This document shows positions 625 through 54,200 of a stretch of DNA of 64,000 nt, one piece after another. The notes below the pieces were generated by a model. That model saw only the letters and a program-made list of their open reading frames with translations. It searched no databases and was not told the origin of the DNA. The DNA lies in the IMG/VR virus record IMGVR_UViG_3300032295_004069. The stretch is one strand, 5' to 3'. Each line of letters begins with the position of its first letter. Position 1 is the stretch's first letter. Both the position numbers and the translations under genes were made by a program. Source of the stretch: a virus (taxonomy: Duplodnaviria > Heunggongvirae > Uroviricota > Caudoviricetes).

Positions 625-1149
625 TTAAAATTTTTTTACACGTTTTAATTTATCATATACTGTGTTTCCAATTAACAACAACACAATACCAATCGTAAAA
701 GAAATTGCAGTTTCTGCTGATGATGAGGTATCTATGTTTGCATAATTTGTGATTTTTTCAATCAGAGATGTCCCAAGAGAACCAAGTAAAGCAGTATTAA
801 TAAAACCAATTGAACCAAGTCCCATCTTCACACGGTCAACAAAGGTAAGTTTTTCCTCTTCTTCGTCTTCAGATAGTTCACTTTCTTCTTTTGATTGTTG
901 AACGGCGATGTTTCCAGCACTTAATGCATCTGATAAACTTGTGTTATCATCAATACCTACATTATTAAGATTTTTCTTTAGGGATACTAATTCACGAGCA
1001 GATAAATTAGAAAGAGCTTGGTCTGCCAAACCTTTTAGTTTTGGAGAATTTACAATATTCATAACCAACTCCTGTTGTTCTTGTTCTGAAATTACTCTTC
1101 TAACAATTCTTGTTAAATCCGATTCACTTAAACTTATAACCTTAGCCAT
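625..1149 (-). CDS. leader-family protein (N-term MAKVISLSESDLTRIVRRVISEQ), acidic Ser/Glu-rich centre, C-terminal TM helix
   Basis: ATG at 1149; shares the 20-aa N-terminal motif with the genes at 8515, 9173, 9896, 10687, 45837 and 52275; hydrophobic C-terminus IGIVLLLIGN. Confidence 0.6.
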   Translation of the reverse strand: MAKVISLSESDLTRIVRRVISEQEQQELVMNIVNSPKLKGLADQALSNLSARELVSLKKNLNNVGIDDNTSLSDALSAGNIAVQQSKEESELSEDEEEEKLTFVDRVKMGLGSIGFINTALLGSLGTSLIEKITNYANIDTSSSAETAISFTIGIVLLLIGNTVYDKLKRVKKF

Positions 1150-1175
1150 TAAAAAATCTTTTAGATAAATACAAT

Positions 1176-1553
1176 TTATTTCAGAATTAAACGTTTGAAT
1201 TGAGAATCACTTATAACAATAACCCTCTTACCCCTTTTCGATTCATTCATAGGTTTATGCGCAATTTTTTCATAATCCTCTCTTGTTCCAACAAACCTGA
1301 GTTCTATTATTTTTTTTGTTTCGTCTAATGGATTAGATAAAAGGGAGAATCTTATTCTCATTTCAGGTTTTCCTGAATATCTAATTCTATATCCTCCAAC
1401 AACATATTTCTTTATGTCGAGGATGGTGTTGAGTTCAGAAAAATCTTTAGCGTTTTGTATTTTTGAAATTACCTTTTCAGTTTCCTCTTTACCACGAGAG
1501 TGTTTTATTTTACTCATCAATTTGAGAAACTTGGGTGTATATTGAATATCCAT
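1176..1553 (-). CDS. RelE/ParE-superfamily toxin-like protein with C-terminal extension
   Basis: GGYRIRYS...EMRIRF...LRFVGTREDY matches the RelE/ParE core pattern (GYRLVY...VG.Rex.Y). The C-terminal tail RVIVISDSQFKRLILK resembles the ITESQ leader motif. Call made from memory of the fold signature. Confidence 0.4.
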   Translation of the reverse strand: MDIQYTPKFLKLMSKIKHSRGKEETEKVISKIQNAKDFSELNTILDIKKYVVGGYRIRYSGKPEMRIRFSLLSNPLDETKKIIELRFVGTREDYEKIAHKPMNESKRGKRVIVISDSQFKRLILK

Positions 1554-1581
1554 TCTTATAAATATCCATTATACCTCTCAT

Positions 1582-1610
1582 AAAATAAAAAACCCCTCAC
1601 AGTGGAGGGG
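1582..1610 (-). terminator. rho-independent terminator (stem CCCCTC/GAGGGG plus U-tract on minus RNA)
   Basis: aaaaaacccctcacagtggagggg on the plus strand; downstream of minus gene 1719..2036. Confidence 0.7.
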
Positions 1611-1718: not shown

Positions 1719-2036
1719 TTAGAAATAAACGGAAGAGTGGGCTGATATAACTGTGCTTTCAGGAAAATTGTACATAAACCACTTTTTTAGTATTTTTTCA
1801 AGTTCAACATCACTAACATTCAAAAGACCCATAAGAGTTTTGAACAACCTTTGGTTTACAATGAATGCATAATCATGATACACAAAAACGGTATTACCCT
1901 CGGAGTCATCTAAAGTAAAGTCACCTTCCCTTGAATTACTATCAATCGATGGGACTATATAAAGTTCACCGTAGGTATCTTCGATGAACTTATTTAAAAA
2001 ATTAATTAATCTATCTTCAGTTATTGTATATTTCAT
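1719..2036 (-). CDS. hypothetical small protein, ITES-type N-terminus (MKYTITEDRL)
   Basis: ATG verified at 2036; 4-nt overlap with the upstream gene; member of the MKYIITESRL N-terminal family. Confidence 0.55.
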   Translation of the reverse strand: MKYTITEDRLINFLNKFIEDTYGELYIVPSIDSNSREGDFTLDDSEGNTVFVYHDYAFIVNQRLFKTLMGLLNVSDVELEKILKKWFMYNFPESTVISAHSSVYF

Positions 2037-2350
2037 AATGATATTGATTCAGCACTTTTATCAAACTCCTTGTTAAACCAATCAATAACAAAAGTCATGT
2101 CTTCTCCCAAATAATTTTCCAAAGTATGAAAAAGTTCTGGATTTAATGCTAATTCTTCTTTCCATATCCAATATCTGGCAAATACTCCCTTATTACCTTT
2201 AATTTCAGGGTCATAATACTCCTCATAGGATTCATCCCCATCACTCCACGTCATATGAAGGGCATTTTCCTTATTAAAGTTTGGATAAACCTCTTTAATA
2301 AGATTTCCCACCAACCTAATCATTCTATCGTGAGTAATTTCGATTTTCAT
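2033..2350 (-). CDS. hypothetical small protein (MKIEITHDRM)
   Basis: ATG at 2350; overlaps neighbours by 4 nt (translational coupling). Confidence 0.55.
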   Translation of the reverse strand: MKIEITHDRMIRLVGNLIKEVYPNFNKENALHMTWSDGDESYEEYYDPEIKGNKGVFARYWIWKEELALNPELFHTLENYLGEDMTFVIDWFNKEFDKSAESISL

Positions 2351-2758: not shown

Positions 2759-4213
2759 TCAATTTATTGCGGCAATATAATTGCTTTTTGGTTGCAATTG
2801 TTGTTTTTGTGAGTCATCTACAAAACCTGCAACTTTTTGTAACCCACCCCTTGCGGATAACTTACTTGTTTGTTTACCAATTATTTTTTCTAAAGTTAAT
2901 AAAACGTGTGGGTTATTTGCTGCCTTAGATAAATTTTGGGCGACACTACCACCCAATTTATTAGTAAGTTCGGTAAACATTTTACTTGCGTTCTGTGCTA
3001 AGTATTTTTCTACACTTATAGCACCCTCACCACCAGCGGCTACGATACTCAATGGACTTACGTTTTTAAGATACGTAGAAACCTGTGGTAGAACTGCAAA
3101 TAGTAAGTTGAGTCCCGCTTCAGTATAATCTCCATTCTCATAAGCTCTGTACGCTTTTACCAAATTGATTCCAGTATTTAAAACCATGGCGGCTTGACCA
3201 ACAACAGGTAATAATGATGCGACGGTTAATAAAAACCCTGCCCAATCATAACCTTCTTCCCCTTTTGATTTTTGTTCTGCAACGTATCTACCAAACGCGG
3301 CATTTATTTGGTCAATTTCAGCATTAATACCTTGTCTAATTACTGACTCAACCTTTTCTCGATTTTTCAAATCAACGTTTGCAAAATGGTCTGAGCCTGC
3401 AATAGGTTCTATAGAATTTTGTTTTAATTTTTCATCGGCCTCTTTTTGTTTAGCCTCAATCTGAGCATCAAATGTTTTAATTGCTTCTTGTGAAAGACCC
3501 AAAGGAAATTCGGGTCTAAAGTATATACTTTTTAGATTACTAGTTTGTTTTCCTGTAACCGAAGTGCTTTCTGATGATGATGAGTTTAAACGAGCATTAG
3601 TTGTCTTTTGAAACTCAAGAGCTTTGGGATAATCGGGAGGGTAATAACCAGCTGGTACGTCTCTCCATGAATTAACATTTGCCAAGGTTTTAAGTACCCA
3701 TCCACCTTTAACAGTTTTGTTTGCAGATTGACCCGATTGATTTATGGATTTCTGTTGGGTCACTTGGTTGGGGTCATAAAAATATTTGTTTGTTTGAGGA
3801 GGAAGGGACCCTCTATATCTTCCCTTTACGGTTCTGTCTGGCCTACCCAATGGTTCATTAAATGCTGCATATCTTTCTTCATCTCTTTGCCAATCCCATG
3901 GTAAAGCTGGCAAAGGTGTTACTGATTTACCTTGCACCAAATTTCCAAGTTGTGAAGATATATTATTGATTTGTTGTAAAGGTACTCTTCTTGGATACCC
4001 TCCCTGTGGAGGTCCTGATGGAAATAATTGTTTTGCGTCAATTGCCCCTTGTGGTTTTTTGATTGGACCACCCGCATAATACACATAATCTCCTTTTGGG
4101 TTAACGCCACCACTTGCAGTTTTTTCCTGAGCATAAAATGGTGAAGATTGTTCCGTTATAATTCCTTTGGTCTTAAGTCTTCGATATTGTGACTCCGTTA
4201 TTTTAATTATCAT
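2759..4213 (-). CDS. large leader-family protein (MIIKITESQYRRL...) with glycine-zipper-like segment
   Basis: 484 aa; N-terminal ITESQY motif; Pro/Gly/Gln-rich centre; C-terminal LLPVVGQAAMVLNTGINL resembles the GPFISAGIGLADA segment of the 4223..5626 paralog. Confidence 0.6.
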   Translation of the reverse strand: MIIKITESQYRRLKTKGIITEQSSPFYAQEKTASGGVNPKGDYVYYAGGPIKKPQGAIDAKQLFPSGPPQGGYPRRVPLQQINNISSQLGNLVQGKSVTPLPALPWDWQRDEERYAAFNEPLGRPDRTVKGRYRGSLPPQTNKYFYDPNQVTQQKSINQSGQSANKTVKGGWVLKTLANVNSWRDVPAGYYPPDYPKALEFQKTTNARLNSSSSESTSVTGKQTSNLKSIYFRPEFPLGLSQEAIKTFDAQIEAKQKEADEKLKQNSIEPIAGSDHFANVDLKNREKVESVIRQGINAEIDQINAAFGRYVAEQKSKGEEGYDWAGFLLTVASLLPVVGQAAMVLNTGINLVKAYRAYENGDYTEAGLNLLFAVLPQVSTYLKNVSPLSIVAAGGEGAISVEKYLAQNASKMFTELTNKLGGSVAQNLSKAANNPHVLLTLEKIIGKQTSKLSARGGLQKVAGFVDDSQKQQLQPKSNYIAAIN

Positions 4214-4222
4214 ATTCTATAA

Positions 4223-5626
4223 TTACATTGCAATCTTAACTTGTGATTTTAAGTATTCTGCTTGTTGAGCGAGTTTTGATATAAACTTTCGATATTCCAC
4301 AGGGTTTTTTGAAAGGTATAGGAAATGTTGCGAAATAGTTTGGTCATTATACCCTAAGACTTTAGATACGTTGTTTGACCAACTAGCAGCACTCCCTTTT
4401 GACCAATTGATTACACCATTCAAAGCACTAATTAATTCATTCTTATCCATTACTTTACCCAAATTTTTTGTATTTCTTGCTAAATTTTGTAAAACCATTG
4501 TATTATTTGCAATTATTTCATTTGGGTTGAGATAATATTGTCTTAATCCTATATCAAACCTAGCTTGGGCTATATTTTTGAAACCTAATCCTCTAGCGTC
4601 GGCAGCGAGAGCCAAATTTTTTAATCCTTCCAAAGCCTCCGTTGCGTATTTTTTTATGTATACAGGACTTTTAACCATTGAGGGGTCTTTTATATGTGCA
4701 AATTCGTGAAATAGACTGTCTTCTATATTTTTTAGACTAAGATTTTTAACATTGTCTTTGATAATATAAATCGCATTTTCTGCATTATCTGCAAGCATAT
4801 GAGAGTTTGCACTTTGAGGTAATTGTTTAGCAACCAAATCCCTTGGAACCGTATATACTTTGATTGTTCTTGGTCCTGTCTTTAAATTCAAAACAACCTG
4901 TTTAACAGTGTCGTTATCGAACACTTCTGCTGCAATTTTTTGGATTTGTGTTATTTCATCAGACCCAAACTTAATTCCAAACTTTGTAACAAAATTGGCC
5001 AATCTTGGAATGGCTTTTTGTCCTGATTGAAGTGATTGTAAAAAGTATACTTGGTCCGAGCCTCCTGAGATAAATTCCCTCATAAGTTTTTCGTACGCCT
5101 CTTGACCAAATCTTTCAATATAAGCAGGTTTTAGCTCTGTAATTTGTTTTACTAAAGGTGATAATTTTTTGGAAGCAGTTTGCGCAATAGTTTGAATGGA
5201 AGGTGCGTTAGTTATAACTTGTTTGACCAACTCGGTTTCCAATTGTGTTAATTTTGCACCTGATGTGAACTTAGATGCAATTGTTTTCCAAACAGCGGAA
5301 CCTGTTTCTTTTACACCAGGAATTTTTCCAATAAAAGGTAAAAGAGAAAAAACTGCTGAAATTGTTGCGGATGTTTTGTCTCCCTCCTTATAGTATAATG
5401 ACGCATCCGCTAACCCGATACCTGCAGAAATAAATGGTCCAACCACAGGAATGAAAGCAGAACCTATACCAGCAATCGCCAGTATGGTATTAGGGTCCAA
5501 TCCCGTCAATTCAAATGCTTTTTTGATTGCTTGTGGTTTTTGATAATCATAACCACCAACAGGTGCCAAACCCATCGGTTGTTCAAGAATCAACTTATAC
5601 TGAGATTCAGTAATAATAATTTTCAT
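4223..5626 (-). CDS. paralog of 2759..4213 (MKIIITESQYKLILEQ...), GPFISAGIGLADASLYYKEG segment
   Basis: The track start at 5632 is a TTG inside the upstream TATTTATTG motif; true ATG at 5626. Shares the FIPVVGPFISAGIGLAD block with 9896..10603. Confidence 0.6.
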   Translation of the reverse strand: MKIIITESQYKLILEQPMGLAPVGGYDYQKPQAIKKAFELTGLDPNTILAIAGIGSAFIPVVGPFISAGIGLADASLYYKEGDKTSATISAVFSLLPFIGKIPGVKETGSAVWKTIASKFTSGAKLTQLETELVKQVITNAPSIQTIAQTASKKLSPLVKQITELKPAYIERFGQEAYEKLMREFISGGSDQVYFLQSLQSGQKAIPRLANFVTKFGIKFGSDEITQIQKIAAEVFDNDTVKQVVLNLKTGPRTIKVYTVPRDLVAKQLPQSANSHMLADNAENAIYIIKDNVKNLSLKNIEDSLFHEFAHIKDPSMVKSPVYIKKYATEALEGLKNLALAADARGLGFKNIAQARFDIGLRQYYLNPNEIIANNTMVLQNLARNTKNLGKVMDKNELISALNGVINWSKGSAASWSNNVSKVLGYNDQTISQHFLYLSKNPVEYRKFISKLAQQAEYLKSQVKIAM

Positions 5627-7944: not shown

Positions 7945-8433
7945 TTACATTGTTGCTCCTCTAATTCCGTATCGTCTAACCAATCTGTTTCTTTGTCTAC
8001 ATTCCTTATTAGTTCTTGTTCCACCTCCGAATATTCTTCTAAATAATTCAATAATCAAAACCAAAATCATAAGACCTCCTATTCCTTTCATAACTTGTGC
8101 ACCCATCACATTACCACCATAATTTTGTTCTTGTACTTTATTACTTCTTTGTTGTGCTTTCAGTTCTTTAATCTTATTTTTGATTTGAGGTACAGTCATC
8201 TTTTTTACTTCCTCTTCAAACTTTTTAATTTCATCTGAATACTCAGGTACTTCATAAGATATTGAACACTCGGGTTGAAGTTCTTGAATTTCTTCAGCAC
8301 TTAATGTTTCCCCAACATCTTGTAGTTCTTGATTGAACTCTTCCATTCCATCCATTTGTTCAGATAATAATCTTTTTTCTAATCTCTGATTAGCTTCTTG
8401 GATGTGTCTAATTTTACTATAACTTCTATTCAT
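7945..8433 (-). CDS. hypothetical coiled-coil protein with C-terminal TM segment
   Basis: ATG at 8433; EEFNQELQ / KKFEEEVKK heptad-like stretches; GIGGLMILVLIIELF hydrophobic tail. Confidence 0.5.
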   Translation of the reverse strand: MNRSYSKIRHIQEANQRLEKRLLSEQMDGMEEFNQELQDVGETLSAEEIQELQPECSISYEVPEYSDEIKKFEEEVKKMTVPQIKNKIKELKAQQRSNKVQEQNYGGNVMGAQVMKGIGGLMILVLIIELFRRIFGGGTRTNKECRQRNRLVRRYGIRGATM

Positions 8434-8514: not shown

Positions 8515-9171
8515 TTATATAATTGAACTTAATGTGTCTTTAATTTGTCGGGCCAGTTTTGCAAGGTCCCCTTTATTAATAGTGTTGACCAATGTTTGAT
8601 ATTTGTCCCCCAATTGTTTTTCATGACTTTTGAGTGTTGATAACGCACTTGTTTTGTTTCCTGTGATTAAATCCCAAATCAAACCCAATGTGGTTTGTGG
8701 AGGAAATACATTCACTATAAGTTTTACAACATCAATACCAATTTCCCCGATATTATAAGCAACACCCAATGGAGTTTGTTCACTCAAATTTTGTTCTTCA
8801 ATAACTCTTTTAACAATTTTAGTAGAATCAGATTCCGTAAGTTTATTTCTCTTTTTACTTTCACCAAGTAAACCAATCAAATCTTCTTTTGATTTACCTC
8901 TATAACTTGTGCAATAAATTATATCTCTTTCAGGTCTTTCACCATAAAGTGATTCCGCACTCATGTGGTTGATACCTTCACAATCTATAGATTCAAAATT
9001 ATTTATAATATCTCTTAGTTGAGAATTTCTTGTATCTTTAATTCTCATTTCAAATTCGTCAGGTTCATAACTTGGTTCACTTCTTCTGAACTCACCTGCA
9101 AATTGTTCCTTCATAACTCTTTTAACGATTTTAGTTAAATCAGATTCAGTTAGTTTAATTATCTTTTTCAT
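8515..9171 (-). CDS. leader-family protein carrying two copies of the KLTESDLTKIVKRVIxEQ motif (N-terminal and internal, about aa 110-127)
   Basis: ATG at 9171; the internal repeat KRNKLTESDSTKIVKRVIEEQ is encoded near 8790-8850, suggesting fusion of two tandem paralogs or a polyprotein-like arrangement. Confidence 0.6.
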   Translation of the reverse strand: MKKIIKLTESDLTKIVKRVMKEQFAGEFRRSEPSYEPDEFEMRIKDTRNSQLRDIINNFESIDCEGINHMSAESLYGERPERDIIYCTSYRGKSKEDLIGLLGESKKRNKLTESDSTKIVKRVIEEQNLSEQTPLGVAYNIGEIGIDVVKLIVNVFPPQTTLGLIWDLITGNKTSALSTLKSHEKQLGDKYQTLVNTINKGDLAKLARQIKDTLSSII

Positions 9172-9172: not shown

Positions 9173-9496
9173 TTATTGTTTTGGACTTGTATCTTTTAAT
9201 TGTTCAAATGTGGGAAGAACAACACCCGTGATTTTCTTTGAATTCAAATCATCTTGGACAAGTTTAATTACTTGAGGATATAGTTGAGCAGAATCTTTTC
9301 CCTCAGCCCCCTTACTTGTTACAATCTCACTTGTAGTTTGATTAATTACTTTGATATCAACTCTACAACTACCGAAGAAACAAAACTTTGTCCCCATGGA
9401 AATATAAGTTGGAGATGATGGTTGAGATTGTTCTTTAATAACCCTTTTAACTATTTTAGTTAAATCAGATTCAGTTAGTTTAATTATCTTTTTCAT
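9173..9496 (-). CDS. leader-family small protein (MKKIIKLTESDLTKIVKRVIKEQ)
   Basis: ATG at 9496; the first ~70 nt are nearly identical to the 5' end of 8515..9171 (recent duplication). Confidence 0.6.
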   Translation of the reverse strand: MKKIIKLTESDLTKIVKRVIKEQSQPSSPTYISMGTKFCFFGSCRVDIKVINQTTSEIVTSKGAEGKDSAQLYPQVIKLVQDDLNSKKITGVVLPTFEQLKDTSPKQ

Positions 9497-9497: not shown

Positions 9498-9815
9498 TTA
9501 AAACATTTCTTGTTTAATTGTAAATTCAGGATGAATATCCAATTCAGAGTTTATCCATCTTAATATATAAGTTTTAGTTTCGTGTTCGGATATTCCAAAT
9601 AAGTCAGACATTGAAGAAACATATTGTTCATCAAACGCAATTCCAATTTTACCATACACATCTTTAAGAACAAACACGGGAGTATCTCCAATACCCCACC
9701 AAGTATATTCTTCACCCTCAATCTCTTGGGAATGAGATTCAATATTTTCCAACGAATCATTAAGATAATTTGTTATCAAACTTTCAAATCTCGATTCAGA
9801 TATAATGTATTTCAT
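9498..9815 (-). CDS. hypothetical small protein (MKYIISESRFESL)
   Basis: ATG at 9815 preceded by the TATTTATTGAAAT motif. Confidence 0.55.
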   Translation of the reverse strand: MKYIISESRFESLITNYLNDSLENIESHSQEIEGEEYTWWGIGDTPVFVLKDVYGKIGIAFDEQYVSSMSDLFGISEHETKTYILRWINSELDIHPEFTIKQEMF

Positions 9816-10686: not shown

Positions 10687-11199
10687 TTATTTAACCACGA
10701 TTCTTCTGAGAGGGTTTGCAATATTGTTCCACTCAATTTCTATATCAATATCACCATCCAAGTCATCGAACAAATTATTATATGCTTGGTTATATGTTTT
10801 TACTGTAGAACAAAATGATGTAACATCTTTGAAAGAGTTGAATACATTATATATTGTTTGTTCATCGGTTCCAGCTCCTGTAATTGCGTTGTACAATTCC
10901 TGTGCTTGTTTTTTTGATTGAGGTGTTATAGGTGCCTGACTTTTATTACAAAGACTCATAAACTCTTTTACTTTTACGTCTGAATTACCAGCCCCTCTGA
11001 AAATTGTTGCAGCCGCCGCAGCTAATCCACCTACCGCAGCACCAACTACATTACCAACACCAGGTACCACACTTCCTACAAGTGCTCCACTTCCCGCACC
11101 AGCTGCAATCTGTCCAAGAACATCTTTTGTCTGTTCTTTTATAACTTTGGAAACAATTCTTTCCAAGTCTGACTCCGTTAGTCTTATAATTTTTCTCAT
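10687..11199 (-). CDS. leader-family protein (MRKIIRLTESDLERIVSKVIKEQ) with Gly/Ala-rich glycine-zipper segment
   Basis: Family motif begins at the internal ATG 11199, which is preceded by a TATTTATAAT motif; the track's 5' extension to 11397 crosses into the DnaA-box/G-tract region. GAGSGALVGSVVPGVGNVVGAAVGGLAAAAA is membrane-active-like. Confidence 0.55.
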   Translation of the reverse strand: MRKIIRLTESDLERIVSKVIKEQTKDVLGQIAAGAGSGALVGSVVPGVGNVVGAAVGGLAAAAATIFRGAGNSDVKVKEFMSLCNKSQAPITPQSKKQAQELYNAITGAGTDEQTIYNVFNSFKDVTSFCSTVKTYNQAYNNLFDDLDGDIDIEIEWNNIANPLRRIVVK

Positions 11200-32823: not shown

Positions 32824-32826
32824 GGC

Positions 32827-45836: not shown

Positions 45837-46571
45837 TTAATTTGTTTTTGCTGTCCAAGTTCCAAGAACAAGTCCACGTTGTTTACCAGGTCCACCTTCA
45901 CTACAAGCTCCTTTGGTAGTCCATTTCTTTCCACCTTTTTGATAAAGTATATTATTACCAACAGGAGCACCTTCACCTAAATCTCTACCATCCAAATAGA
46001 ATTGGAGCGTTCCTCCTTGCCATTGAACCTCGGCGTATTGATTTGGTGCTGTCCCATAAGCCTTGAAAGTTGATTCAGACTCAACACAAGAAAACATATT
46101 CGATTGAGTCGCTGGATTCTGTTGTGTTACCGCTGGAGGAGCTTCTAAACTCCTACAGAATTTATTTTCATCGTTAATTAAACCTATTAATTCATCTTTA
46201 ACCGCATCAGATTGAATATCTGCTTCTTCCAAATCCCCTTTAAGACTTCCTGTGTTACCAGTTCCATCAAACAAACCCTCTTCCTCAGCGGCTTTGGATG
46301 CATAAAACTTATCAAATTGTTTGTAGGCACACTTACCAGTTCTGGCAGAAGCCGTACCAAATACTTCATCTTGTAAGATTTCTTGAATCTTTTCCACGTC
46401 AGAGTTTTCTACATCCCCTAACATCAAGTCAACGACTTTGTTAGCAACATCTCTGAGTGTAGCGTCATCCAACCTAATAACAGTGTTTGTAGGTGCTTGT
46501 TCCGAAATCATACTCTTTTTTATTAACTTGATGAGTTCAGATTCCGTGAGTCTAATTTTTTTCTTAGCCAT
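45837..46571 (-). CDS. leader-family protein (MAKKKIRLTESELIKLIKKSMISEQ)
   Basis: ATG at 46571. Confidence 0.55.
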   Translation of the reverse strand: MAKKKIRLTESELIKLIKKSMISEQAPTNTVIRLDDATLRDVANKVVDLMLGDVENSDVEKIQEILQDEVFGTASARTGKCAYKQFDKFYASKAAEEEGLFDGTGNTGSLKGDLEEADIQSDAVKDELIGLINDENKFCRSLEAPPAVTQQNPATQSNMFSCVESESTFKAYGTAPNQYAEVQWQGGTLQFYLDGRDLGEGAPVGNNILYQKGGKKWTTKGACSEGGPGKQRGLVLGTWTAKTN

Positions 46572-46616: not shown

Positions 46617-47540
46617 CTATTGTGGAGTTTGATTTTGTGCCGCCAATTCACCTCTTAGTCTTCTCACTTCTTGTCTTGCAGCTTGTTGTTTCCCACGGGC
46701 AGTTCCGATAGCCACTCTATCACCAGTCTTTTGAGCCGCATCCAACTCCGCTTTAGCAGTATCTAAGTTTGCCTTCGCAAGTTGAAACTGTTGGTCTAAG
46801 GTTAACTGAGTCTGTGGTGCCTGAATTTGTGTTGGTCGTGCACTGATATTTGTAGGTACCTGTACATCGACATTTAGGTCCGCAACTGATTTAGTTGTTG
46901 TCGGAACAGTCACAGGTTTTTCAAGTTGTCTTTTAGGTTGGGCCGCTTGAATTATTTCATTGAAAGAGGTTTCATCCAACCCCACGTTTCTATCATAAGA
47001 TAATCCCAATTCCTTAGCTTTTGCGTCCAAAGCTTTTTGAGTTGCGTTATAAAATTTACCTGTAATGTTTGCCTGTCCCTTACTATTCACAACACCCAAT
47101 GCTTGTTGAAGTTTTTTAACGTTTTCACCCTGCATCATATATTTTAGTGGGAACTTCTCAGCAACGAATTTAGGTGCGGGTGGAGCTGCGGGTGCGGCGG
47201 GAGCTGCACCTGCTGCGGCTTGGGCATTTTGTTGTGTCTTTCCTTGAATCTCCAATAACTTTTTATTCATTGAAGCAGTATCACAAAAGAAAATCTTATT
47301 TTCCGCAACGTTAGGGTTTAACCCTGAATTCGTTGCAAAGTTTTGTTGCATTTGTGCTGTCGTTGGAAGACCTACCGCGACTCCCGTACAATCAATTGGG
47401 AACCCACTCGCTTTTTGTTGAAAAGGTTGTTGAAAAGGTTGTTGAAAGGTTGGAAATTGTTCTGAAATAACAACTCCTTTCTGATAACTGAAAAGAGATT
47501 TCATTCTTGAGATTTCTGAAATCAATGGTTTTGTGTTCAT
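46617..47540 (-). CDS. QPFQQ-repeat protein with PG_binding_1-like domain
   Basis: LKYMMQGENVKKLQQALGV...GKFYNATQKALDA. Confidence 0.5.
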   Translation of the reverse strand: MNTKPLISEISRMKSLFSYQKGVVISEQFPTFQQPFQQPFQQKASGFPIDCTGVAVGLPTTAQMQQNFATNSGLNPNVAENKIFFCDTASMNKKLLEIQGKTQQNAQAAAGAAPAAPAAPPAPKFVAEKFPLKYMMQGENVKKLQQALGVVNSKGQANITGKFYNATQKALDAKAKELGLSYDRNVGLDETSFNEIIQAAQPKRQLEKPVTVPTTTKSVADLNVDVQVPTNISARPTQIQAPQTQLTLDQQFQLAKANLDTAKAELDAAQKTGDRVAIGTARGKQQAARQEVRRLRGELAAQNQTPQ

Positions 47541-48860: not shown

Positions 48861-48903
48861 ATTAATAAACAGAGGGGTTCCACCTCCGTCTTCACCTGTT
48901 TAG

Positions 48904-50859: not shown

Positions 50860-52275
50860 TTAATCTTCAGATTCAACTTTTGAGGTCTGAATTTTTTCTT
50901 TAATCTTATCAACCATTTTTTTCCCGACCTCTTTCATAAATTTAATGTAAGGTACATCAGGTCTATCGGGATTATATCTGTACGGGTCCTCTGAAGGTCT
51001 TGTCTTTCTTCCTAAAAAATTTAGACCAGATATGTTGGTGATACACTTGTGACCACCTGATTGTGATTGAATAAAGTCCCACATGTTGATTCCGACCTTG
51101 TCTAACAAAGATTTTTCTTGTTCTGAAAGTTCAGAGAAAGGCTTATCCATTATTGGTTTCAGTTTATCAATAACCTCTTCACCCCCTTCAATCATCTGAA
51201 ACTTACCTCCAAATAAAGCATCAAAGTCTTTGAATGTAAATCCAACACTATCAGGTCCAACCGATACTTCACTTAACCATTTCATAGTAGATAATGGAAT
51301 TACTCTTTTTTTCAAAGCTGGCTCGTATTCAGATAAAACTTCCTGAGCTATCTCTCCGAGATTAACACCTTTAAGTTCTCTTTCTTTTTTGAATGGATTA
51401 CAGGACGCTTGAAGTAATCCCATCGGCCATAATAAAACAAGAAAATCCGCTTCAGGATGAACTCTGAATGGTGTGTATCTATCATATGAACCACCTTTCA
51501 TTGAGCCAGCACCATATTGAAATATGATACCATCTTGATAAACTCTTTTAGGGTAGGTTTTCATTTGTTGGAAATATTCCTCTGACCTTTTTTGTAAAAC
51601 ATCAGTGGTATCGGCATTTGTGGCTTTCATCCATGACTTAATATTATTCAAAATTGAAAGTAAAGATGGTTCGGAGTTCATAACTAAATCCTCCATAAAA
51701 CCTTTCTTGTTTTTGAAAGCTAATATTAATTTGTTGATGACTAATCCTAATAACATTTTGTTCTTAGAGAGAGATTTCTCCTTGTCGAGTCTAAACAAAT
51801 AGTTTACAACATCTTCAGGATTTAGACCCTGTCTAACAAAGTCTGCAGAATCAACTGTACTAATCAACAAAATATCTAAAGATGGAAATAAATCCCTTGG
51901 TGATACAACCTGAGAAATTGTTTCAACATTAGAACGAGCCTGTCTAAAAGATTTCGATGTGTCTTTCTCAGCTCCGACTTGTTTGTCGTGGTGGTCAGTG
52001 TGAATTTTAAACATTGGTTTACCATGTGCAAAGTCAACCAAAACTGGCATTGTGTCGCCCTGTGCATCGTTCTTCTTCACCGAAAACTCTTTATCTCCAT
52101 ATTGAATAACATGTGCACCAACCACATCAATACCGTTATCCTCAAGGTATTTTTTCATGGCAATCGCAGTGGTCACACCGTCCAAATCTTGATGAAAATA
52201 AATTTCGGCTTTGGGATATCTCTTCCTCAAAGCCGATATATCTCTCAAACCCGTTTCCGTGATAACTCTTTTCAT
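50860..52275 (-). CDS. DHH-family phosphoesterase-like protein (ITET-type N-terminus)
   Basis: YFHQDLDGVTTAIAM and KIHTDHHDKQ resemble DHH motifs I and III. Confidence 0.5.
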   Translation of the reverse strand: MKRVITETGLRDISALRKRYPKAEIYFHQDLDGVTTAIAMKKYLEDNGIDVVGAHVIQYGDKEFSVKKNDAQGDTMPVLVDFAHGKPMFKIHTDHHDKQVGAEKDTSKSFRQARSNVETISQVVSPRDLFPSLDILLISTVDSADFVRQGLNPEDVVNYLFRLDKEKSLSKNKMLLGLVINKLILAFKNKKGFMEDLVMNSEPSLLSILNNIKSWMKATNADTTDVLQKRSEEYFQQMKTYPKRVYQDGIIFQYGAGSMKGGSYDRYTPFRVHPEADFLVLLWPMGLLQASCNPFKKERELKGVNLGEIAQEVLSEYEPALKKRVIPLSTMKWLSEVSVGPDSVGFTFKDFDALFGGKFQMIEGGEEVIDKLKPIMDKPFSELSEQEKSLLDKVGINMWDFIQSQSGGHKCITNISGLNFLGRKTRPSEDPYRYNPDRPDVPYIKFMKEVGKKMVDKIKEKIQTSKVESED

Positions 52276-52589
52276 TACTTCAATTCAATCGAAAAAATTT
52301 CGAATTTCTTTTTAGTTTTAGGTTCATAACCGAACATTCTCTCACCGTCTTTACCCATTTCAAACATGAAACTTCCTTTCGGTAAAGCCGTTTTAACTTT
52401 CATTGATTGTTCACGTCCTGTTTCAGTCTTAACTACTAAAACTTTATTACCTTCAGCATCCATTTTAATTTCTGCCTCAGCGTTAGAACCTGGTGTTACG
52501 ATTGTTATTTTCTTATCTTTTTGTTCACTGATTACTCTTTTTACGATTCTTTTCAAATCGGACTCAGTCAATTTTATAATCTTTTTCAT
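52275..52589 (-). CDS. leader-family small protein (MKKIIKLTESDLKRIVKRVISEQ)
   Basis: Peptide conserved while the nucleotide sequence is diverged relative to 9173..9496. Confidence 0.55.
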   Translation of the reverse strand: MKKIIKLTESDLKRIVKRVISEQKDKKITIVTPGSNAEAEIKMDAEGNKVLVVKTETGREQSMKVKTALPKGSFMFEMGKDGERMFGYEPKTKKKFEIFSIELK

Positions 52590-52960
52590 TAATACTTAAG
52601 TGTTAAGAGGTATTTTGATTTATTGATTAGACCTAACATCTCGTCTCTTAAATTCAAAAGGTCAGTATCATATCTTGAATCAAGTTGGTCACTCATACCA
52701 ACTAGAAATTCTGTGATTCCATCCATAAAATTTTGGATGCTGAGTGCAGAGATGTCTTGAAACATTAATGCAAATTCAGGTTCAAACTCAGGTCTTCCGT
52801 ACTTACCCATCATAGTCTCTGTGAACTCATCTATCAGGTCACCTAAACCATCATAAATTGCACCGTATGTTTTATGTTTAGCATCACCAAATGTCTGCCA
52901 ATGTAAAAACTTCCATTGAAGTTGTATTTGTACTAATTTTTTAATTAATTCTTCTTTCAT
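52589..52960 (-). CDS. hypothetical protein
   Basis: ATG at 52960. Confidence 0.45.
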   Translation of the reverse strand: MKEELIKKLVQIQLQWKFLHWQTFGDAKHKTYGAIYDGLGDLIDEFTETMMGKYGRPEFEPEFALMFQDISALSIQNFMDGITEFLVGMSDQLDSRYDTDLLNLRDEMLGLINKSKYLLTLKY

Positions 52961-52970
52961 ATTTTAATAA

Positions 52971-54200
52971 TTATATTCCTGGTATAGGATTTAATCTCCC
53001 CAATAACATACTTTTCAAAAATCCTGCGAAAACATCTTTCTCAGGTTCAGGTGTCGCCACAGATGTTGTTGGTATGGATGGTTGAGGTTTAACTTGTGGA
53101 GTTGGAGCAGCAGTCGGAGTTTCAGTTTCTCTACTGAATTTATTAATATCTCCGTACTTTTTCTGTATATCTCCCATTCTGTCGGCTTTACCGAATTGGT
53201 CATCAAAATTTTCGAGTGCTTGTGGTGTTTGATTGTATTGTTCAATTTTTTTCATCATCTGAGCCTCACCCATTTGATTAGATAACTCATCAGGACCAAC
53301 AAAGTTTCCTATACCAATATAATCTAAGAAACCTAACCACCACTTGGTTTGACCCATTAATATTTTAATTCTTCTACCCTCAGGACTTCTAAATAATCTC
53401 GGTATTCCTCCGAAAAAAATCTGACTTAGGGCACCTGGCTTAGATAACGTTGCCGCGTCAAAAATCTTAGTGCTTTTTACAATATCCAAAAGGGTTTCAA
53501 CATCTCCCAACTTCGCAGTTCCTTTAGCGAAGTCACCTGCAACACTCGCAGCAAAACTTTTACTGGTCAAACTTTTCTTACCCGCATTTTGAAGTATCTT
53601 CAAATAATCAGTCATGGTGTTCTTTAAACCATTGAATGGTCCAAGGGGAAGTGCATCTAAAGTTCCAATCACATTATCTCCTGTCTTACCTCCAAACTTT
53701 TGAATCATTTTACCAAGTGCGTTTGGTGCTTTTGCAAAATCATCAACTAGTTTACCTGCCGCAATGTATTGTTTACTTCCTGGTGTTGCAGTCTTCATGA
53801 TTTTCAAGGCTTTGTCTAAGGCTTTAGTAGAATTGGTTCCCAATTTCGCTGCTCCCATAATAGATTTACCCACAACGTCACCAAATGCTGGTATCGCACT
53901 TACCAAACTGAGAATACCAAATAATGTATCTCCTTGTGTGAAATATGATATTGCGTTAATACTGTCTGTAATTGGAGTAGGGTCAACAATACCCAAAAAA
54001 TCCATCGCTGTGTTGTACCACTTGGCTTCCTTAAGAGACTTTTTCTGAGGATAAAGATAATTTAGAACATCAACAACTACCTTCTTTTCCTCTTCAGTAA
54101 GTTTCTCCCACTTTTTTGAAATTGTTTCGTAGGGACTTTCTGTGATTCTGTCTTTTATGAGTTCTAATTGAGATTGTGAAATAATGTACTCAGCCATCAA
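52971..54200 (-). CDS. ITES-leader protein (MMAEYIISQSQLELI) with Gly-rich membrane-active-like segments
   Basis: GILSLVSAIPAFGDVVGKSIMGAAKLG resembles the paralog family at 2759-5626. Confidence 0.5.
   Translation of the reverse strand: MMAEYIISQSQLELIKDRITESPYETISKKWEKLTEEEKKVVVDVLNYLYPQKKSLKEAKWYNTAMDFLGIVDPTPITDSINAISYFTQGDTLFGILSLVSAIPAFGDVVGKSIMGAAKLGTNSTKALDKALKIMKTATPGSKQYIAAGKLVDDFAKAPNALGKMIQKFGGKTGDNVIGTLDALPLGPFNGLKNTMTDYLKILQNAGKKSLTSKSFAASVAGDFAKGTAKLGDVETLLDIVKSTKIFDAATLSKPGALSQIFFGGIPRLFRSPEGRRIKILMGQTKWWLGFLDYIGIGNFVGPDELSNQMGEAQMMKKIEQYNQTPQALENFDDQFGKADRMGDIQKKYGDINKFSRETETPTAAPTPQVKPQPSIPTTSVATPEPEKDVFAGFLKSMLLGRLNPIPGI

What the first reader, a model, noticed from the sequence alone, without database searches (positions are those of the whole stretch)
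625..54200. Superfamily of more than 20 proteins sharing a conserved N-terminal leader (MKKIIKLTESDLxRIVKRVIxEQ / MKYIITESxL), with a stand-alone C39-like peptidase nearby
Seven genes (625, 8515, 9173, 9896, 10687, 45837, 52275) start with an almost invariant 20-22-aa peptide. At least 13 more (1719, 2033, 2759, 4223, 9498, 13193, 15026, 19445, 32542, 32827, 33181, 50860, 52971) start with the related (I/V)I(T/S)E(S/T)x(L/Y) motif. Their downstream sequences are unrelated and range from 90 to 484 aa, including glycine-zipper membrane-active-like proteins and a DHH enzyme. In 52275 versus 9173 the peptide is conserved while the DNA has diverged, so selection acts on the peptide. A stand-alone papain-like C39 peptidase-domain protein (18892..19443) is encoded in the same region and itself starts RLTEQQLIDLI. 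The leader resembles double-glycine bacteriocin leaders (LSxxELxxIxGG) in its first half but lacks the GG. Possible roles are a capsid/virion-targeting sequence in the manner of T4 internal proteins, a secretion or ejection signal, or a propeptide removed by the C39-like enzyme.
Basis: partly seen in the sequence, partly recalled or inferred. Interest (0 to 1): 0.75.

Follow-up and report, generated by a model that had tools for sequence, protein, structure and literature searches.

The report
Capsid-address tag on phage proteins
Dozens of unrelated small proteins in this uncultivated T4-like giant phage start with the same 22-residue peptide, which most likely acts as an address label that loads them into the virus head and is then cut off by the head-maturation protease, so the tag may mark the set of proteins the phage injects into its host.

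Summary
Eight copies of M-K-K-I-I-[KR]-L-T-E-S-D-L-x-R-I-V-K-R-V-I-x-E lie in the window: seven at ORF N-termini and one internal. They score 46-61 bits against a leader profile, and the next best hit scores 7. The tag is selected as a peptide, because synonymous codons vary freely. It stops abruptly after an invariant Glu22. It sits on about 7,000 protein clusters in metagenomes, almost all viral.

Related contigs that carry the tag encode a T4-type head module: Portal_T4, Peptidase_S77 (gp21-like) prohead protease, a scaffold protein and a Gp23 capsid protein. The T4 gp23 cleavage site (E65|A66) aligns with an invariant L-I-N-E|A in these capsid proteins. The scaffold proteins carry L-x-E|Q. 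At least six other N-terminal peptide families in these phages also end in hydrophobic-hydrophobic-x-E-Q at residues 15-35.

The best reading is therefore a T4-style capsid-targeting propeptide removed by the S77 protease, not by the C39 enzyme. The C39 protein is itself a tagged cargo: its homologues carry different leader types or none. The domains that can be recognised in cargo tails are directed at peptidoglycan.

Cleavage and packaging are inferred, not shown, and the window itself holds no head genes. Novelty: new variant of a known kind. Confidence about 0.6.

The parts
625..1149 (-). Class I leader ORF (174 aa). Leader codons 1084-1149. The tail has C-terminal hydrophobic segments.
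   Evidence: 53.6 bits to the leader profile. Sequence. TATTTAT box 22 nt upstream of the ATG.
8515..9171 (-). Class I leader ORF (218 aa) with two leader copies: N-terminal (9106-9171) and internal (~8794-8859). Probably a read-through fusion of two tagged genes.
   Evidence: 59.9 and 50.8 bits. Two-copy proteins recur in the metagenome hits.
9173..9496 (-). Class I leader ORF (107 aa). Leader codons 9431-9496.
   Evidence: 59.9 bits.
9896..10603 (-). Class I leader ORF (235 aa from the ATG at 10603). Leader codons 10538-10603. The tail is a Gly/Pro-rich hydrophobic domain shared with 4223.
   Evidence: 60.8 bits. Tail 48.5% identical to the tail of 4223, E 3e-24. A terminator hairpin plus TATTTAT cassette lies upstream.
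10687..11199 (-). Class I leader ORF (170 aa from the ATG at 11199). Leader codons 11134-11199, followed directly by a glycine-zipper hydrophobic segment.
   Evidence: 51.4 bits. Weak DUF6861 and tape-measure-like PHROG matches to the tail.
45837..46571 (-). Divergent class I leader ORF (244 aa; MAKKKIRLTESELIKLIKKSMISEQ). Leader codons ~46500-46571.
   Evidence: 46.4 bits.
52275..52589 (-). Class I leader ORF (104 aa). Leader codons 52524-52589.
   Evidence: 54.3 bits. AlphaFold2 model: residues 1-20 have pLDDT 94-97, helix 9-25, then a small beta-strand tail.
7945..8433 (-). ORF with a different N-terminal peptide family (type B, MNRSYSKIRHIQEANQRLEKRLLSEQ) ending in L-L-S-E-Q at residue 26. 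C-terminal hydrophobic segment.
   Evidence: Motif count. The same peptide family occurs in L070, L007, L009, L090 and L078.
46617..47540 (-). ORF with a type C N-terminal peptide (..EISRMKSLFSYQKGVVISEQ) ending in V-I-S-E-Q at residue 28.
   Evidence: Family recurs in L065, L008, L030, L048, L053 and L059.
2759..4213 (-). 484-aa ORF with a class II-type N-terminus (MIIKITESQYRRLKTKGIITEQ) ending in I-I-T-E-Q at residue 22.
   Evidence: Weak tail similarity to 9896 and 4223.
4223..5626 (-). 467-aa ORF with a short class II leader (MKIIITESQYKLILEQ) ending in I-L-E-Q at residue 16. Its tail domain is homologous to that of the class I ORF 9896, which is an example of leader swapping.
18892..19443 (-). 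Stand-alone C39 peptidase domain (183 aa). Its first 20 residues (MKRRLTEQQLIDLISMIVEE) have the same hydrophobic register as the class I leader and end in I-V-E-E. Predicted to be a tagged cargo, not the leader peptidase.
   Evidence: Pfam 1.7e-20. Nearest PDB sequences are ComA and LahT150. AF2 pLDDT 92.5 with helix 7-21. Fold matches. Homologues carry other leaders or none.
18155..18895 (-). 246-aa ORF with a type F-like N-terminus (MRNLQENILRIKQVMGLIIESEG; L-I-I-E at residue 21). Downstream in the same operon as the C39 ORF.
   Evidence: Related peptides MNLHENINRIKEVMGVILEQ and MKLQEQVSRIKSMMGILTEQ occur in L020 and L033.
19445..20074 (-). 209-aa ORF with a class II N-terminus (MEIIITESQLQKIQE). 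First gene of the 19445-18892-18155 operon (TATTTAT 11 nt upstream). Carries a conserved C-terminal Cys module.
52971..54197 (-). ~408-aa ORF with a class II-like N-terminus (MAEYIISQSQLELIKDRITES; R-I-T-E at residue 20). The tail has hydrophobic Gly/Pro-rich segments.
1719..2350 (-). Two adjacent ~105-aa class II ORFs (1719-2036 and 2033-2350). No obvious hydrophobic-x-E boundary after the motif.
   Evidence: Membership in the cleaved-leader set is uncertain.
9498..9815 (-). 105-aa class II ORF (MKYIISESRF...).
   Evidence: Terminator-promoter cassette upstream.
13193..13504 (+). 103-aa class II ORF (MKYIITEVQYDRLL...).
   Evidence: TATTTAT 11 nt upstream.
15026..15412 (+). 128-aa class II ORF (MRYIITQSQLHTLV...). 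Belongs to an 11-member tail cluster across the fetched loci.
32542..33486 (-). Three tandem class II ORFs (32542-32823, 32827-33180, 33181-33486).
50860..52275 (-). 471-aa DHH-like protein with N-terminus MKRVITETGLRD. This N-terminus is conserved together with the enzyme across 11 loci, so it is probably part of the enzyme family rather than a swappable tag.
   Evidence: Pfam DHH 9.5e-4. Cluster of 11 homologues.

Best explanation
The 22-residue peptide M-K-K-[IV]-I-[KR]-L-T-E-S-D-L-x-R-I-V-K-R-V-I-x-E is a capsid-targeting propeptide of a large, uncultivated group of T4-like (Gp23/Portal_T4/S77) giant phages. Their translation signals look Bacteroidota-like. The proposed mechanism is as follows. 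A short extended stretch plus an amphipathic helix binds the scaffolding core of the assembling prohead, so any protein fused behind it is co-assembled into the head. The gp21-type serine prohead protease then cuts after the invariant Glu22 (P4-P1 = V-I-x-E, often with P1' = Q). This frees the mature cargo, which stays in the head with the DNA and is delivered to the next host at infection. Other N-terminal peptide families in the same phages (types B-G, including the short 'class II' MKIIITESQYxLIxE form) would be alternative tags ending in the same cleavage motif. The C39 peptidase in the window is one such cargo.

Shown here: the motif, its N-terminal position, peptide-level selection, its sharp boundary, its spread, the diversity and swapping of tails, the T4-type head genes in related contigs, and the conserved hydrophobic-x-E sites in capsid and scaffold proteins.

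Inferred: binding to the core, cleavage, packaging and ejection. It is also inferred that the window's own genome, whose head genes lie outside the window, has the same protease.
For: 1. Discrete, N-terminal, multi-copy motif. There are 8 hits of 46-61 bits in the window against 7 bits for the next best. In 1.25 Mb of related loci, 210 of 212 strong hits start at an ATG, with up to 9 per 14-20 kb.

2. Peptide-level selection and a sharp end. All positions up to E22 carry 2.7-4.3 bits, except the two variable positions 13 and 21 (1.6-1.9 bits). E22 is present in 149/153 unique sequences, Q23 in about 50%, and there is no information beyond. Synonymous codons vary freely, for example L7 TTA 71 / CTT 33 / CTA 29.

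3. Modularity. 158 unique tails fall into 122 BLASTP clusters. Homologous tails carry different leaders (4223 versus 9896). C39 homologues carry class I-like, class II-like or other leaders, or none.

4. A common end motif on unrelated N-terminal peptides. In the window, [LIVM][LIVM]xEQ ends at residues 18-28 in 11 proteins and occurs only twice in the other 16.6k residues. In related loci, proteins without the class I leader show the same positional peak: 0.0014-0.0029 per residue at positions 15-30 against 0.00013 background.

5. T4-type head machinery in leader-bearing phages. L078 encodes Portal_T4 (4.5e-73), Peptidase_S77 (1.6e-22, with the T4 H85 and S140 columns conserved) and Gp23 (2.3e-74). 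The protease lies ~2.5 kb upstream of the capsid gene in all 57 capsid-seeded loci with enough flank, and 17 of 80 such loci hold class I leader genes. Contig 3300044633_000899 holds both.

6. Site conservation. T4 gp23 ...FLTE65|A66 aligns with L-I-N-E|A, which is invariant in 43/43 unique capsid N-termini. The scaffold proteins carry L-x-E|Q with x free in 28/28.

7. T4 precedent. IPII and IPIII share MKTYQEFIAE|A on unrelated proteins. gp21 cuts after L/I-X-E, and the first 10 residues of IPIII suffice for packaging (PMC9026906; PMC3012670; PMC5694885).

8. Gene position and regulation. In L078 and L113, class I and type B genes sit between the protease and scaffold genes. The box ATATTTAT precedes 56% of class I genes against 21% of other genes (OR 4.7, p 1.5e-18), and also precedes the scaffold/capsid operon.

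9. Structure. AF2 gives residues 1-20 a pLDDT of 94-97, with helix 9-25 and then a separate tail.
Against: No head gene or protease lies in the window or could be read on its 81.9-kb source contig. The link rests on family relationship: shared gene blocks with leader loci and L003 head-module synteny.

There is no proteomic evidence for cleavage or packaging.

Leader genes are not enriched near the capsid gene: 17 hits in ~1 Mb of capsid-seeded loci, against ~1 per 6-8 kb in leader-seeded loci and the window.

The recognisable cargo domains (PG_binding_1, LysM, YkuD/Tlde1, transglycosylase, M23) act in the periplasm, whereas T4 internal proteins go to the cytoplasm. A myovirus delivering head proteins to the periplasm has no established precedent that I know of.

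Dozens of tagged genes per genome is far more than T4's handful.

The TATTTAT box also precedes about a fifth of other genes, so it does not prove late expression.

The leader has no detectable sequence similarity to the T4 CTS.
Confidence: 0.6

Rival explanations
1. The leader is a new, Sec-independent export or membrane-targeting signal. It would send phage proteins to the cell envelope of the infected cell, for example for envelope remodelling, superinfection exclusion or lysis.
For: Every recognisable domain on tagged proteins is directed at peptidoglycan or the envelope. PG_binding_1 occurs 5 times, LysM twice and YkuD/Tlde1 once. PHROG 'endolysin' and transglycosylase families match. Peptidase_M23 sits on a class II leader. 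Glycine-zipper or hydrophobic tails are present. None of these proteins has a classical signal peptide. The helix is amphipathic and basic.
Against: There is no hydrophobic core, twin-arginine or lipobox. No exporter gene was seen in the window or among the conserved neighbours. The near-invariance of 20 residues points to one specific protein partner rather than a membrane. 30 of 158 tails are strongly acidic soluble proteins. The invariant E22 and the shared hydrophobic-hydrophobic-x-E-Q end on unrelated N-terminal peptides, on the capsid protein and on the scaffold protein are not explained by this reading. Conserved internal copies occur in fusion proteins.
Confidence: 0.13
2. The leader is an uncleaved docking or recognition tag for another common partner. 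Candidates are the scaffold or portal without processing, the phage-encoded Clp-type AAA+ unfoldase seen near leader genes in some relatives, or self-association.
For: Extreme conservation implies one partner. Tandem and internal copies are tolerated. A ClpA/B-like ATPase lies close to leader genes in about 6 loci. The helix is predicted with confidence on the C39 protein as well.
Against: The abrupt loss of conservation right after Glu22, followed by a stretch enriched in E, D, S and Q, and the match to the protease's known motif fit a cleavage boundary better. No Clp gene is in the window. The Clp gene is absent from most leader loci.
Confidence: 0.12
3. The leader is a double-glycine-type bacteriocin or RiPP-like leader processed by the neighbouring stand-alone C39 peptidase.
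For: L-T-E-S-D-L-x-R-I-V lines up with L-S-x-x-E-L-x-x-I-x of double-glycine leaders. A catalytically intact C39 domain, closest to ComA, PCAT1 and LahT150, is encoded 7.5 kb from the nearest class I gene.
Against: K17-R18 stands where Gly-Gly should be, and conservation runs on to E22. A C39 profile finds no homologue in 2.2 Mb of leader-seeded and capsid-seeded loci. The leader is on ~7,000 clusters, while only 87 C39 homologue clusters were found. The C39 protein itself bears a leader that is swapped or absent in homologues. No ABC transporter or modification enzyme is in the window. Cargo reaches 434 aa.
Confidence: 0.03
4. The similarity is a DNA-level or translation-level feature (a recombination cassette, or an A-rich start region for initiation without a Shine-Dalgarno sequence), or a generic helix without a specific function.
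For: Upstream regions are A/T-rich without a Shine-Dalgarno sequence. Repeated terminator-promoter cassettes flank several leader genes. MKK starts are common in AT-rich genomes.
Against: Synonymous sites vary freely while the amino acids are fixed. Profile scores are bimodal. The motif is essentially absent from 185,579 species genomes (5 stretches) and from 50,697 GenBank phage records.
Confidence: 0.02

Closest known systems
Capsid targeting sequences (CTS) of bacteriophage T4 internal proteins IPI, IPII, IPIII and Alt, removed by the gp21 prohead protease (MEROPS S77)
   Same: A short N-terminal peptide shared by otherwise unrelated, fast-evolving small proteins. It ends in (L/I)-x-E, the gp21 cleavage motif. 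The phage group has homologous portal, protease, scaffold-position and Gp23 capsid genes. Tagged genes lie in variable regions flanked by terminator-promoter cassettes, as the T4 IP locus and PeSL elements do.
   Different: The leader is 22 residues rather than 10-19, with no sequence similarity to MKTYQEFIAE. It is far more conserved and far more widely used: 8 or more class I genes plus about 15 other tagged candidates in 64 kb, and ~7,000 protein clusters overall. P1' is often Q rather than A. Several parallel leader families coexist. Cargo includes peptidoglycan-directed domains, membrane-active segments and a C39 protease. Nothing has been tested experimentally.
Propeptides of head and ejection proteins of giant phages phiKZ, 201phi2-1 and SPN3US, cut by gp175/gp245 after (S/A/G)-x-E
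   Same: Large phages that load many different proteins into the head. N-terminal propeptides are removed after Glu. Paralogues share conserved N-termini. Some mature fragments begin with a transmembrane segment, as 10687 would.
   Different: Those propeptides are mostly over 100 residues and are not one shared tag. The motif is S/A-x-E rather than hydrophobic-x-E. The phage lineage is different (no phiKZ-type markers were seen here).
Double-glycine leader peptides processed by C39 peptidase domains of PCAT/AMS transporters
   Same: An N-terminal amphipathic helix with L-[ST]-x-x-[ED]-L-x-x-[IV]. A C39 domain is encoded nearby.
   Different: There is no Gly-Gly, no transporter, large cargo and no co-occurrence with C39. 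The C39 protein is itself tagged.
N-terminal trafficking domains of polymorphic toxin and effector systems (for example LXG, MIX, PAAR/Rhs)
   Same: One conserved N-terminal delivery module fused to a very large, shuffled repertoire of C-terminal effectors. One tail matches the Tlde1 type VI effector domain.
   Different: Here the module is a 22-residue peptide encoded by a virus, and the presumed delivery vehicle is the virion. There is no homology to those domains.

Membership tests
T4-type capsid targeting sequence / S77-processed propeptide | N-terminal peptide shared by otherwise unrelated proteins of one phage | tested here: met
   210/212 profile hits are at ORF starts. 158 tails fall into 122 clusters.
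T4-type capsid targeting sequence / S77-processed propeptide | Peptide ends in the prohead-protease motif (L/I)-x-E | tested here: met
   The end is V-I-x-E22. P3 is I, V, L or M in 152/153 sequences and E22 is present in 149/153. Information content drops to zero after position 23. The motif itself is taken from PMC9026906.
T4-type capsid targeting sequence / S77-processed propeptide | The same genome encodes an S77 (gp21-like) prohead protease | tested here: inconclusive
   Met in related leader-bearing contigs: L078/L079, L113, the L120 contig, and 57 capsid-seeded loci. Not seen for the window's own contig, because the head genes lie outside the 64-kb window and its readable flanks.
T4-type capsid targeting sequence / S77-processed propeptide | Other head proteins of the lineage carry the same site form at positions homologous to known T4 cleavage sites | tested here: met
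   The capsid protein has L-I-N-E|A aligned to T4 E65|A66 (43/43). The scaffold protein has L-x-E|Q (28/28).
T4-type capsid targeting sequence / S77-processed propeptide | Sequence homology to the T4 CTS (MKTYQEFIAE) | tested here: not met
   By eye there is no similarity between the class I leader and T4 IPI/II/III; no alignment was run. It works like a CTS but is not a homologue of it.
T4-type capsid targeting sequence / S77-processed propeptide | The peptide is sufficient for packaging and is removed in the mature virion | not testable with these tools
   Needs virion proteomics or fusion experiments.
Double-glycine (C39/PCAT) leader peptide | Gly-Gly (or Gly-Ala/Ser) at positions -2/-1 of the cleavage site | tested here: not met
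   K17 (112/153) and R18 (125/153) occupy the aligned positions. No GG is found in the leader.
Double-glycine (C39/PCAT) leader peptide | Co-occurrence with a C39 peptidase or PCAT transporter | tested here: not met
   There are no C39 profile hits in 2.2 Mb of related loci. No ABC transporter is in the window.
Peptidase family C39 (for ORF 18892-19443 only) | Papain-like fold with a Gln/Cys/His/Asp catalytic set and a score above the family threshold | tested here: met
   Pfam scores 74.5 bits against a cut-off of 24. Q36, C42, H125 and D141 are invariant in 44 homologues. Foldseek matches ComA, PCAT1 and LahT150 at E ~1e-8 to 1e-9.
Sec/Tat/lipoprotein signal peptides | Hydrophobic h-region, with or without a twin-arginine or lipobox Cys | tested here: not met
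   The leader is charged and amphipathic, with 10 charged residues out of 22 in the consensus MKKIIRLTESDLTRIVKRVIKE. It has no Cys and no uninterrupted hydrophobic run.
RiPP precursor leaders (for example NHLP/prochlorosin type) | Short core peptides and adjacent modification enzymes | tested here: not met
   Cargo has a median of ~100 aa after the leader and reaches 434 aa. No LanM or radical-SAM type gene is in the window.

The most novel reading that the evidence does not exclude
One 22-residue address tag, together with a few sister tags ending in the same cleavage site, defines a very large virus-borne polymorphic effector system. An abundant, uncultivated group of T4-like giant freshwater phages would use it to load dozens of interchangeable proteins per genome into the head for injection, more than 7,000 protein families in all. 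These include peptidoglycan-binding and -remodelling domains, membrane-active glycine-zipper proteins, very acidic DNA-mimic-like proteins and a C39 protease. The tag would then serve as a sequence-only marker that reads out the 'injectome' of uncultured phages. It would also imply that a myovirus head can deliver cargo to the periplasm.
Probability: 0.4. Interest if true: 0.8.

Novelty: new variant of a known kind. Interest (0 to 1): 0.62.

Why it matters
If the tag is a capsid-targeting propeptide, it provides a simple sequence marker for proteins that an abundant, uncultured group of giant phages carries in its heads and injects. Such proteins are the first phage products to meet the host. 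In T4 they include anti-restriction factors. The thousands of tagged ORFans would therefore be a focused candidate list for new anti-defence and host-takeover functions.

It would also extend the T4 packaging-tag principle, which is already used to load foreign proteins into T4 heads, to a second tag that is much more strongly conserved. It raises a testable question about whether myovirus head cargo can act in the periplasm.

Finally, it corrects an attractive but wrong link to bacteriocin-type C39 processing.

Tried and rejected
- Known families for the leader. Pfam, PHROGs and NCBIfam scans of the tagged window proteins found nothing covering the leader.
- Full-text search for LTESDL, ITESQL and LTESDLTRIV found no paper.
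- GenBank phages. There is no nucleotide match to window 20-44 kb, no match to the 4223 protein and none to the leader peptide. No cultured phage carrying class I was found.
- GTDB genomes. Only 5 pattern matches were found, in MAGs or a single-cell assembly. One (L088/L001) is in a real Bacteroidota chromosomal context but is an isolated 53-aa ORF.
- C39 as the leader peptidase: rejected.
- Reaching the head genes of the window's own contig. Look-ups at both window edges gave 1.8 kb on one side and only a short Logan contig on the other.
- Shared genes between the window and the capsid-seeded loci. Only one weak hit was found, so the link had to go through leader-seeded loci and L003.
- The idea that leader genes cluster in the head module holds only for L078, L113 and, for class II, L120. 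It is not general.
- The ~100-aa class II ORFs could not be shown to be either one paralogous family or a set of tagged unrelated proteins. Tail-only BLAST gives only E 0.002-0.007 links.

Full report
**1. What is in the window**

The coordinates given are the low ends of minus-strand genes. Two starts need correcting: 9896 begins at the ATG at 10603, and 10687 begins at the ATG at 11199.

I built a profile from the leaders and searched the six-frame translation of the window. It returns eight hits of 46-61 bits, and the next best hit scores 7.1 bits. The 'class I' leader is therefore a discrete object, not the tail of a continuum. The eighth copy is internal, in ORF 8515-9171.

The looser 'class II' N-termini (MK[YI]IITES[QR][LY]) are also present, including 13193(+) and 15026(+). 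The class I profile does not detect them.

**2. How widespread and how conserved the leader is**

- The leader profile finds 410 proteins among 420 candidates in the word-indexed search.
- It finds 7,009 representatives of 50%-identity clusters at E <= 0.001 in an exhaustive search of 1.84 billion proteins.
- In IMG/VR more than 600 stretches match a back-translated pattern. Of these, 368 were confirmed, many on contigs of 100-322 kb.
- No match exists in 50,697 GenBank phage records.
- Only five stretches match in one genome each of 185,579 bacterial and archaeal species. All are MAGs or a single-cell assembly.

In 1.25 Mb of window plus fetched loci, 210 of 212 strong hits begin at an ATG. 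There are up to nine per locus, and the median ORF is 123 aa. The 158 unique tails form 122 BLASTP clusters.

The logo is M-K-K-[IV]-I-[RK]-L-T-E-S-D-L-x-R-I-V-K-R-V-I-x-E. Glu22 is present in 149 of 153 unique sequences and Gln23 in about half. There is no information beyond that point.

Synonymous codons vary freely at fixed residues. The upstream DNA is A/T-rich without a Shine-Dalgarno sequence. From my own knowledge, that pattern is typical of Bacteroidota.

AlphaFold2 models residues 1-20 of ORF 52275 at pLDDT 94-97, with a helix at 9-25 followed by a separate small tail.

**3.

In the window, [LIVM][LIVM]-x-E-Q ends at residues 18-28 of eleven proteins. It occurs only twice in the other 16,600 residues, and one of those two is the internal leader copy.

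Four of the eleven do not have the class I leader: 2759, 4223, 7945 and 46617. In the fetched loci, proteins without the class I leader show the same positional peak, at roughly 10-20 times background.

These proteins fall into recurrent but mutually unrelated N-terminal peptide families:
- MNRSYSKIRHIQESNxRLExRLLxEQ
- ..EIxxMKxLFGYxxGVVISEQ
- ..YKNRFxNLMESTxGDVKPLIxEQ
- ..ITEEEKxxILxLYxxxxIIxEQ
- ..ExIxRIKxxMGxIxEQ
- MKIIITESQYxLIxEQ

Unrelated peptides of 15-35 residues that all end in the same four-residue pattern suggest a shared processing site.

**4. What kind of phage this is**

The window itself holds only accessory genes: two family-2 glycosyltransferases, UDP-galactopyranose mutase, PduO-type adenosyltransferase, a UvrC-like nuclease, a Y-family polymerase, methylases, an SPFH protein, APS kinase and a NUDIX protein.

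The window comes from an 81.9-kb ENA scaffold. Its close relatives in IMG/VR are ~321-kb contigs.

Among the leader-seeded loci, five carry a capsid gene of the T4 Gp23 family. In L078 the gene order is:
- terminase
- Portal_T4 with an intein (4.5e-73)
- Peptidase_S77, the gp21 family (1.6e-22; the T4 His85 and Ser140 columns are conserved)
- a 69-aa ORF
- a type B leader gene
- two class I leader genes
- a scaffold-like acidic coiled-coil protein
- Gp23 (2.3e-74)

A capsid-seeded scan of IMG/VR gave more than 600 relatives. The protease lies ~2.5 kb upstream of the capsid gene in all 57 loci with enough flank. Class I leader genes occur in 17 of 80 such loci. One contig (3300044633_000899) appears in both the leader-seeded and the capsid-seeded sets.

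The nearest cultured relatives by capsid protein include Flavobacterium phage immuto. Its record annotates gp20, a 'prohead core protein serine protease' and gp23 in the same order.

The window shares a conserved ~10-kb gene block with many leader loci. L003 shares the APS-kinase/cytidylyltransferase pair with the window and has two class I genes. It also shows the same terminase N-terminus and upstream neighbours as the L078/L113 head module. That the window phage has this head module is therefore an inference from family relationship. It was not read directly.

**5. The cleavage-site argument**

T4 gp21 cuts after Glu in L/I-X-E (PMC9026906). T4 gp23 loses a 65-residue propeptide (PMC5694885).

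In an alignment of capsid N-termini, T4 ...FLTE65|A66 aligns with immuto QIVSE|A and with HLINE|A of the leader phages. The Glu and Ala columns are invariant. L-I-N-E|A is present in all 43 unique capsid N-termini.

The scaffold-position proteins carry L-x-E-Q just before their acidic region in 28 of 28 unique sequences. The x position is T, S, K, N, H, F or R. This is the pattern expected of a protease site.

The class I leader ends in the same form: V-I-x-E|Q, with x variable. T4 IPII and IPIII both start MKTYQEFIAE|A and are otherwise unrelated. IPI starts MKTFKEFTSTTTPVSTITE|A. The first ten residues of IPIII suffice for packaging.

**6. Position and regulation**

In L078 and L113, class I genes sit between the protease and scaffold genes. 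In L120, a class II gene sits inside the head module. This is not the rule, however. Most leader genes lie in variable accessory regions, as T4 IP genes do.

A box TATTTAT lies 7-29 nt upstream of about 30 real starts in the window. Thirteen of the 22 genes that have it are leader-type genes. In the loci, ATATTTAT precedes 56% of class I genes against 21% of other genes (OR 4.7, p 1.5e-18). The same box, preceded by ACTTTTT, stands upstream of the scaffold/capsid operon. This is consistent with co-expression with the head genes, but it does not prove it.

**7. The cargo**

Of 150 class I proteins, the only meaningful Pfam hits are PG_binding_1 (5), LysM (2) and YkuD/Tlde1 (1). PHROG hits are 'endolysin' families and transglycosylase. 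A Peptidase_M23 carries a class II leader in relatives.

Thirty of 158 tails are strongly acidic, 13 are basic, 9 have a transmembrane-like segment and 14 are Cys-rich.

Many metagenome proteins carry two leaders, one N-terminal and one internal. Some internal copies still include the Met, so they are read-through fusions of tandem genes. ORF 8515 in the window is of this type.

**8. The C39 protein**

ORF 18892-19443 is a true C39 domain. However:
- A profile of 44 homologues finds no other copy in 2.2 Mb of leader-seeded and capsid-seeded loci.
- Its first 20 residues have the class I hydrophobic register and end in I-V-E-E.
- Close homologues carry clear class I-like leaders (MKKVLKLTEGELVSLIKNIISE...) or other types (MNSELRSIIKQILTE..., MEYILTKEQFEKIVKINE...).
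- Homologues at 60% identity or less start directly at the peptidase domain.

The C39 domain is therefore one more cargo with a swappable tag. The leader also lacks Gly-Gly.

**9. Class II**

The MK[YI]IITES[QR][LY] start occurs on 91 unique proteins in 46 tail clusters. Many of these end soon after in hydrophobic-x-E (for example MKIIITESQYKLILE|Q and MKYILTESQLSKLIKGKIKE|A). They fit the same model.

The ~100-aa window ORFs (1719, 2033, 9498, 13193, 15026, 32542, 32827, 33181) have no clear boundary and only weak mutual tail similarity. Their status is open.

The N-terminus of the DHH protein is conserved together with the enzyme. It is probably not a tag.

**10. Mechanism, and what is shown versus inferred**

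Shown:
- the motif, its N-terminal position, its copy number and its peptide-level selection
- the sharp boundary at Glu22
- modular exchange of leaders and tails
- T4-type portal, S77 protease, scaffold-position and Gp23 genes in leader-bearing relatives
- conserved hydrophobic-x-E sites at the homologous capsid position and in the scaffold protein

Inferred:
- the helix binds the prohead core
- the S77 protease cuts after Glu22
- the mature proteins stay in the head and are ejected
- the window's own genome has the protease

**11. Rivals**

- An envelope export or membrane-targeting signal (0.13) is kept alive by the peptidoglycan-directed cargo. It explains neither Glu22 nor the shared site form.
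- An uncleaved docking tag (0.12), for example for the Clp-type ATPase seen near leader genes in some loci, cannot be excluded without proteomics.
- C39 processing (0.03) and DNA-level or generic explanations (0.02) are contradicted by the data.

**12. Comparison and novelty**

Functionally the closest system is the T4 CTS with gp21. The leader meets the positional, motif and machinery criteria. It is not a sequence homologue of the T4 CTS, and its use is on a very different scale. I found no description of it in the searchable literature or in Pfam, NCBIfam or PHROGs. I rate it a new variant of a known kind.

Noticed in passing
window 47615-48027 (-): A full-length match to the GOLLD RNA family (Rfam RF02032, 312 bits, E 6.6e-90, model positions 1-416). 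It lies about 0.9 kb from tRNA-Met (48903-48975, -). It accounts for the ORF-poor, higher-GC stretch at 47.5-49.5 kb. This places a GOLLD RNA in a T4-like giant lake phage.
   Followed up: partly
window ~8454-8500, ~9828-9880, ~10615-10665 (-); also 1564, 33500, 47564, 54218: A near-identical terminator hairpin (ACCCTCTTC-N7-GAAGGGGGTTTTTT) is followed within ~20 nt by the TATTTAT box and the ATG of a leader-type gene. These composite terminator-promoter cassettes resemble the PeSL elements proposed to mediate gene shuffling in T4-like phages (PMC4122927). Together with the conserved 66-nt leader coding region, they could be the recombination handles that swap cargo genes.
   Followed up: partly
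window, 43 sites, e.g. 1171, 5638, 8454, 10615, 11222, 20085, 46593, 54218 (-); 13182, 15014 (+): The promoter-like box TATTTAT lies 7-29 nt upstream of about 30 real start codons, with modes at 11-13 and 21-23 nt. This implies very short or absent 5' leaders. The same box precedes the scaffold/capsid operon in related contigs.
   Followed up: partly
window ~19448-19540 (-), C-terminus of ORF 19445-20074: A conserved ~31-residue C-terminal module, E-L-T-E-R-C-W-K-G-Y-T-Q-K-G-M-K-T-M-F-G-K-K-Y-P-N-C-V-K-I-K-K. It also ends C39 homologues (L090-L096, P0249, P0284), a class I protein (L074) and other proteins (L020, L029), and is internal in L060. It is always preceded by L-T-E or L-K-E. It is a second shuffled module of unknown role.
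   Followed up: partly
window 63656-64000 (-), runs off the window end: A collagen-like Gly-X-Y tandem array (period 9 nested in period 63, about 5 copies of 63 nt). Probably a fibre or decoration protein.
   Followed up: no
L003 13504-15540, L032 13902-15965, L089 3872-5875: A ClpA/B/C-type AAA+ ATPase (phrog_4871 'ATP-dependent protease', E 2e-240) is encoded close to leader genes in about six related loci. None is in the window. It might unfold or chaperone tagged proteins.
   Followed up: no
L100, L103 (relatives of window 1-2.7 kb); L101, L102, L105: Strain variants of this phage differ next to the leader genes at the window's left end. Some have an inserted RE_EcoO109I plus N6_N4 methylase pair. 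Others have a block that includes a Peptidase_M23 with a class II leader. This is a hyperplastic region.
   Followed up: no
L078 2731-5709; L047 3946-5655; L078 14638-16344: There is an intein with an HNH endonuclease inside the portal gene, and large homing-endonuclease genes sit next to the capsid gene in related phages.
   Followed up: no
L086 4025-4468 and L087 1862-2290 (QCKH01000009.1, 'Prochlorococcus sp. AG-409-L21' single-cell assembly): Two genes carry a class I-like leader with a 6-residue N-terminal extension (MKIKKNGQVIRLTESDLKKIVKRVLIEQ). They lie on a 64-kb, 28-29% GC contig that looks phage-like. The contig is probably a co-sorted or infecting phage rather than cyanobacterial DNA.
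   Followed up: no
window 18892-19443 (-): Besides PCAT/ComA peptidase domains, the C39 model matches the pseudomurein endoisopeptidase PeiR (8z4h, E 1e-8) and papain-like contact-dependent toxins. A cell-wall peptide or a host protein may be its real substrate, rather than a double-glycine leader.
   Followed up: no
L109 5659-6741 and 7322-7549 (Flavobacterium phage immuto, MW353176): In this cultured relative, ORFs inside the head module start MRTLQEKYNAIQEGKFSKEHFIAE|A (compare the T4 CTS ...EFIAE|A) and MENNFDIHKWQAKFLKESTIQEQ. They are candidates for experimentally accessible tagged proteins.
   Followed up: no
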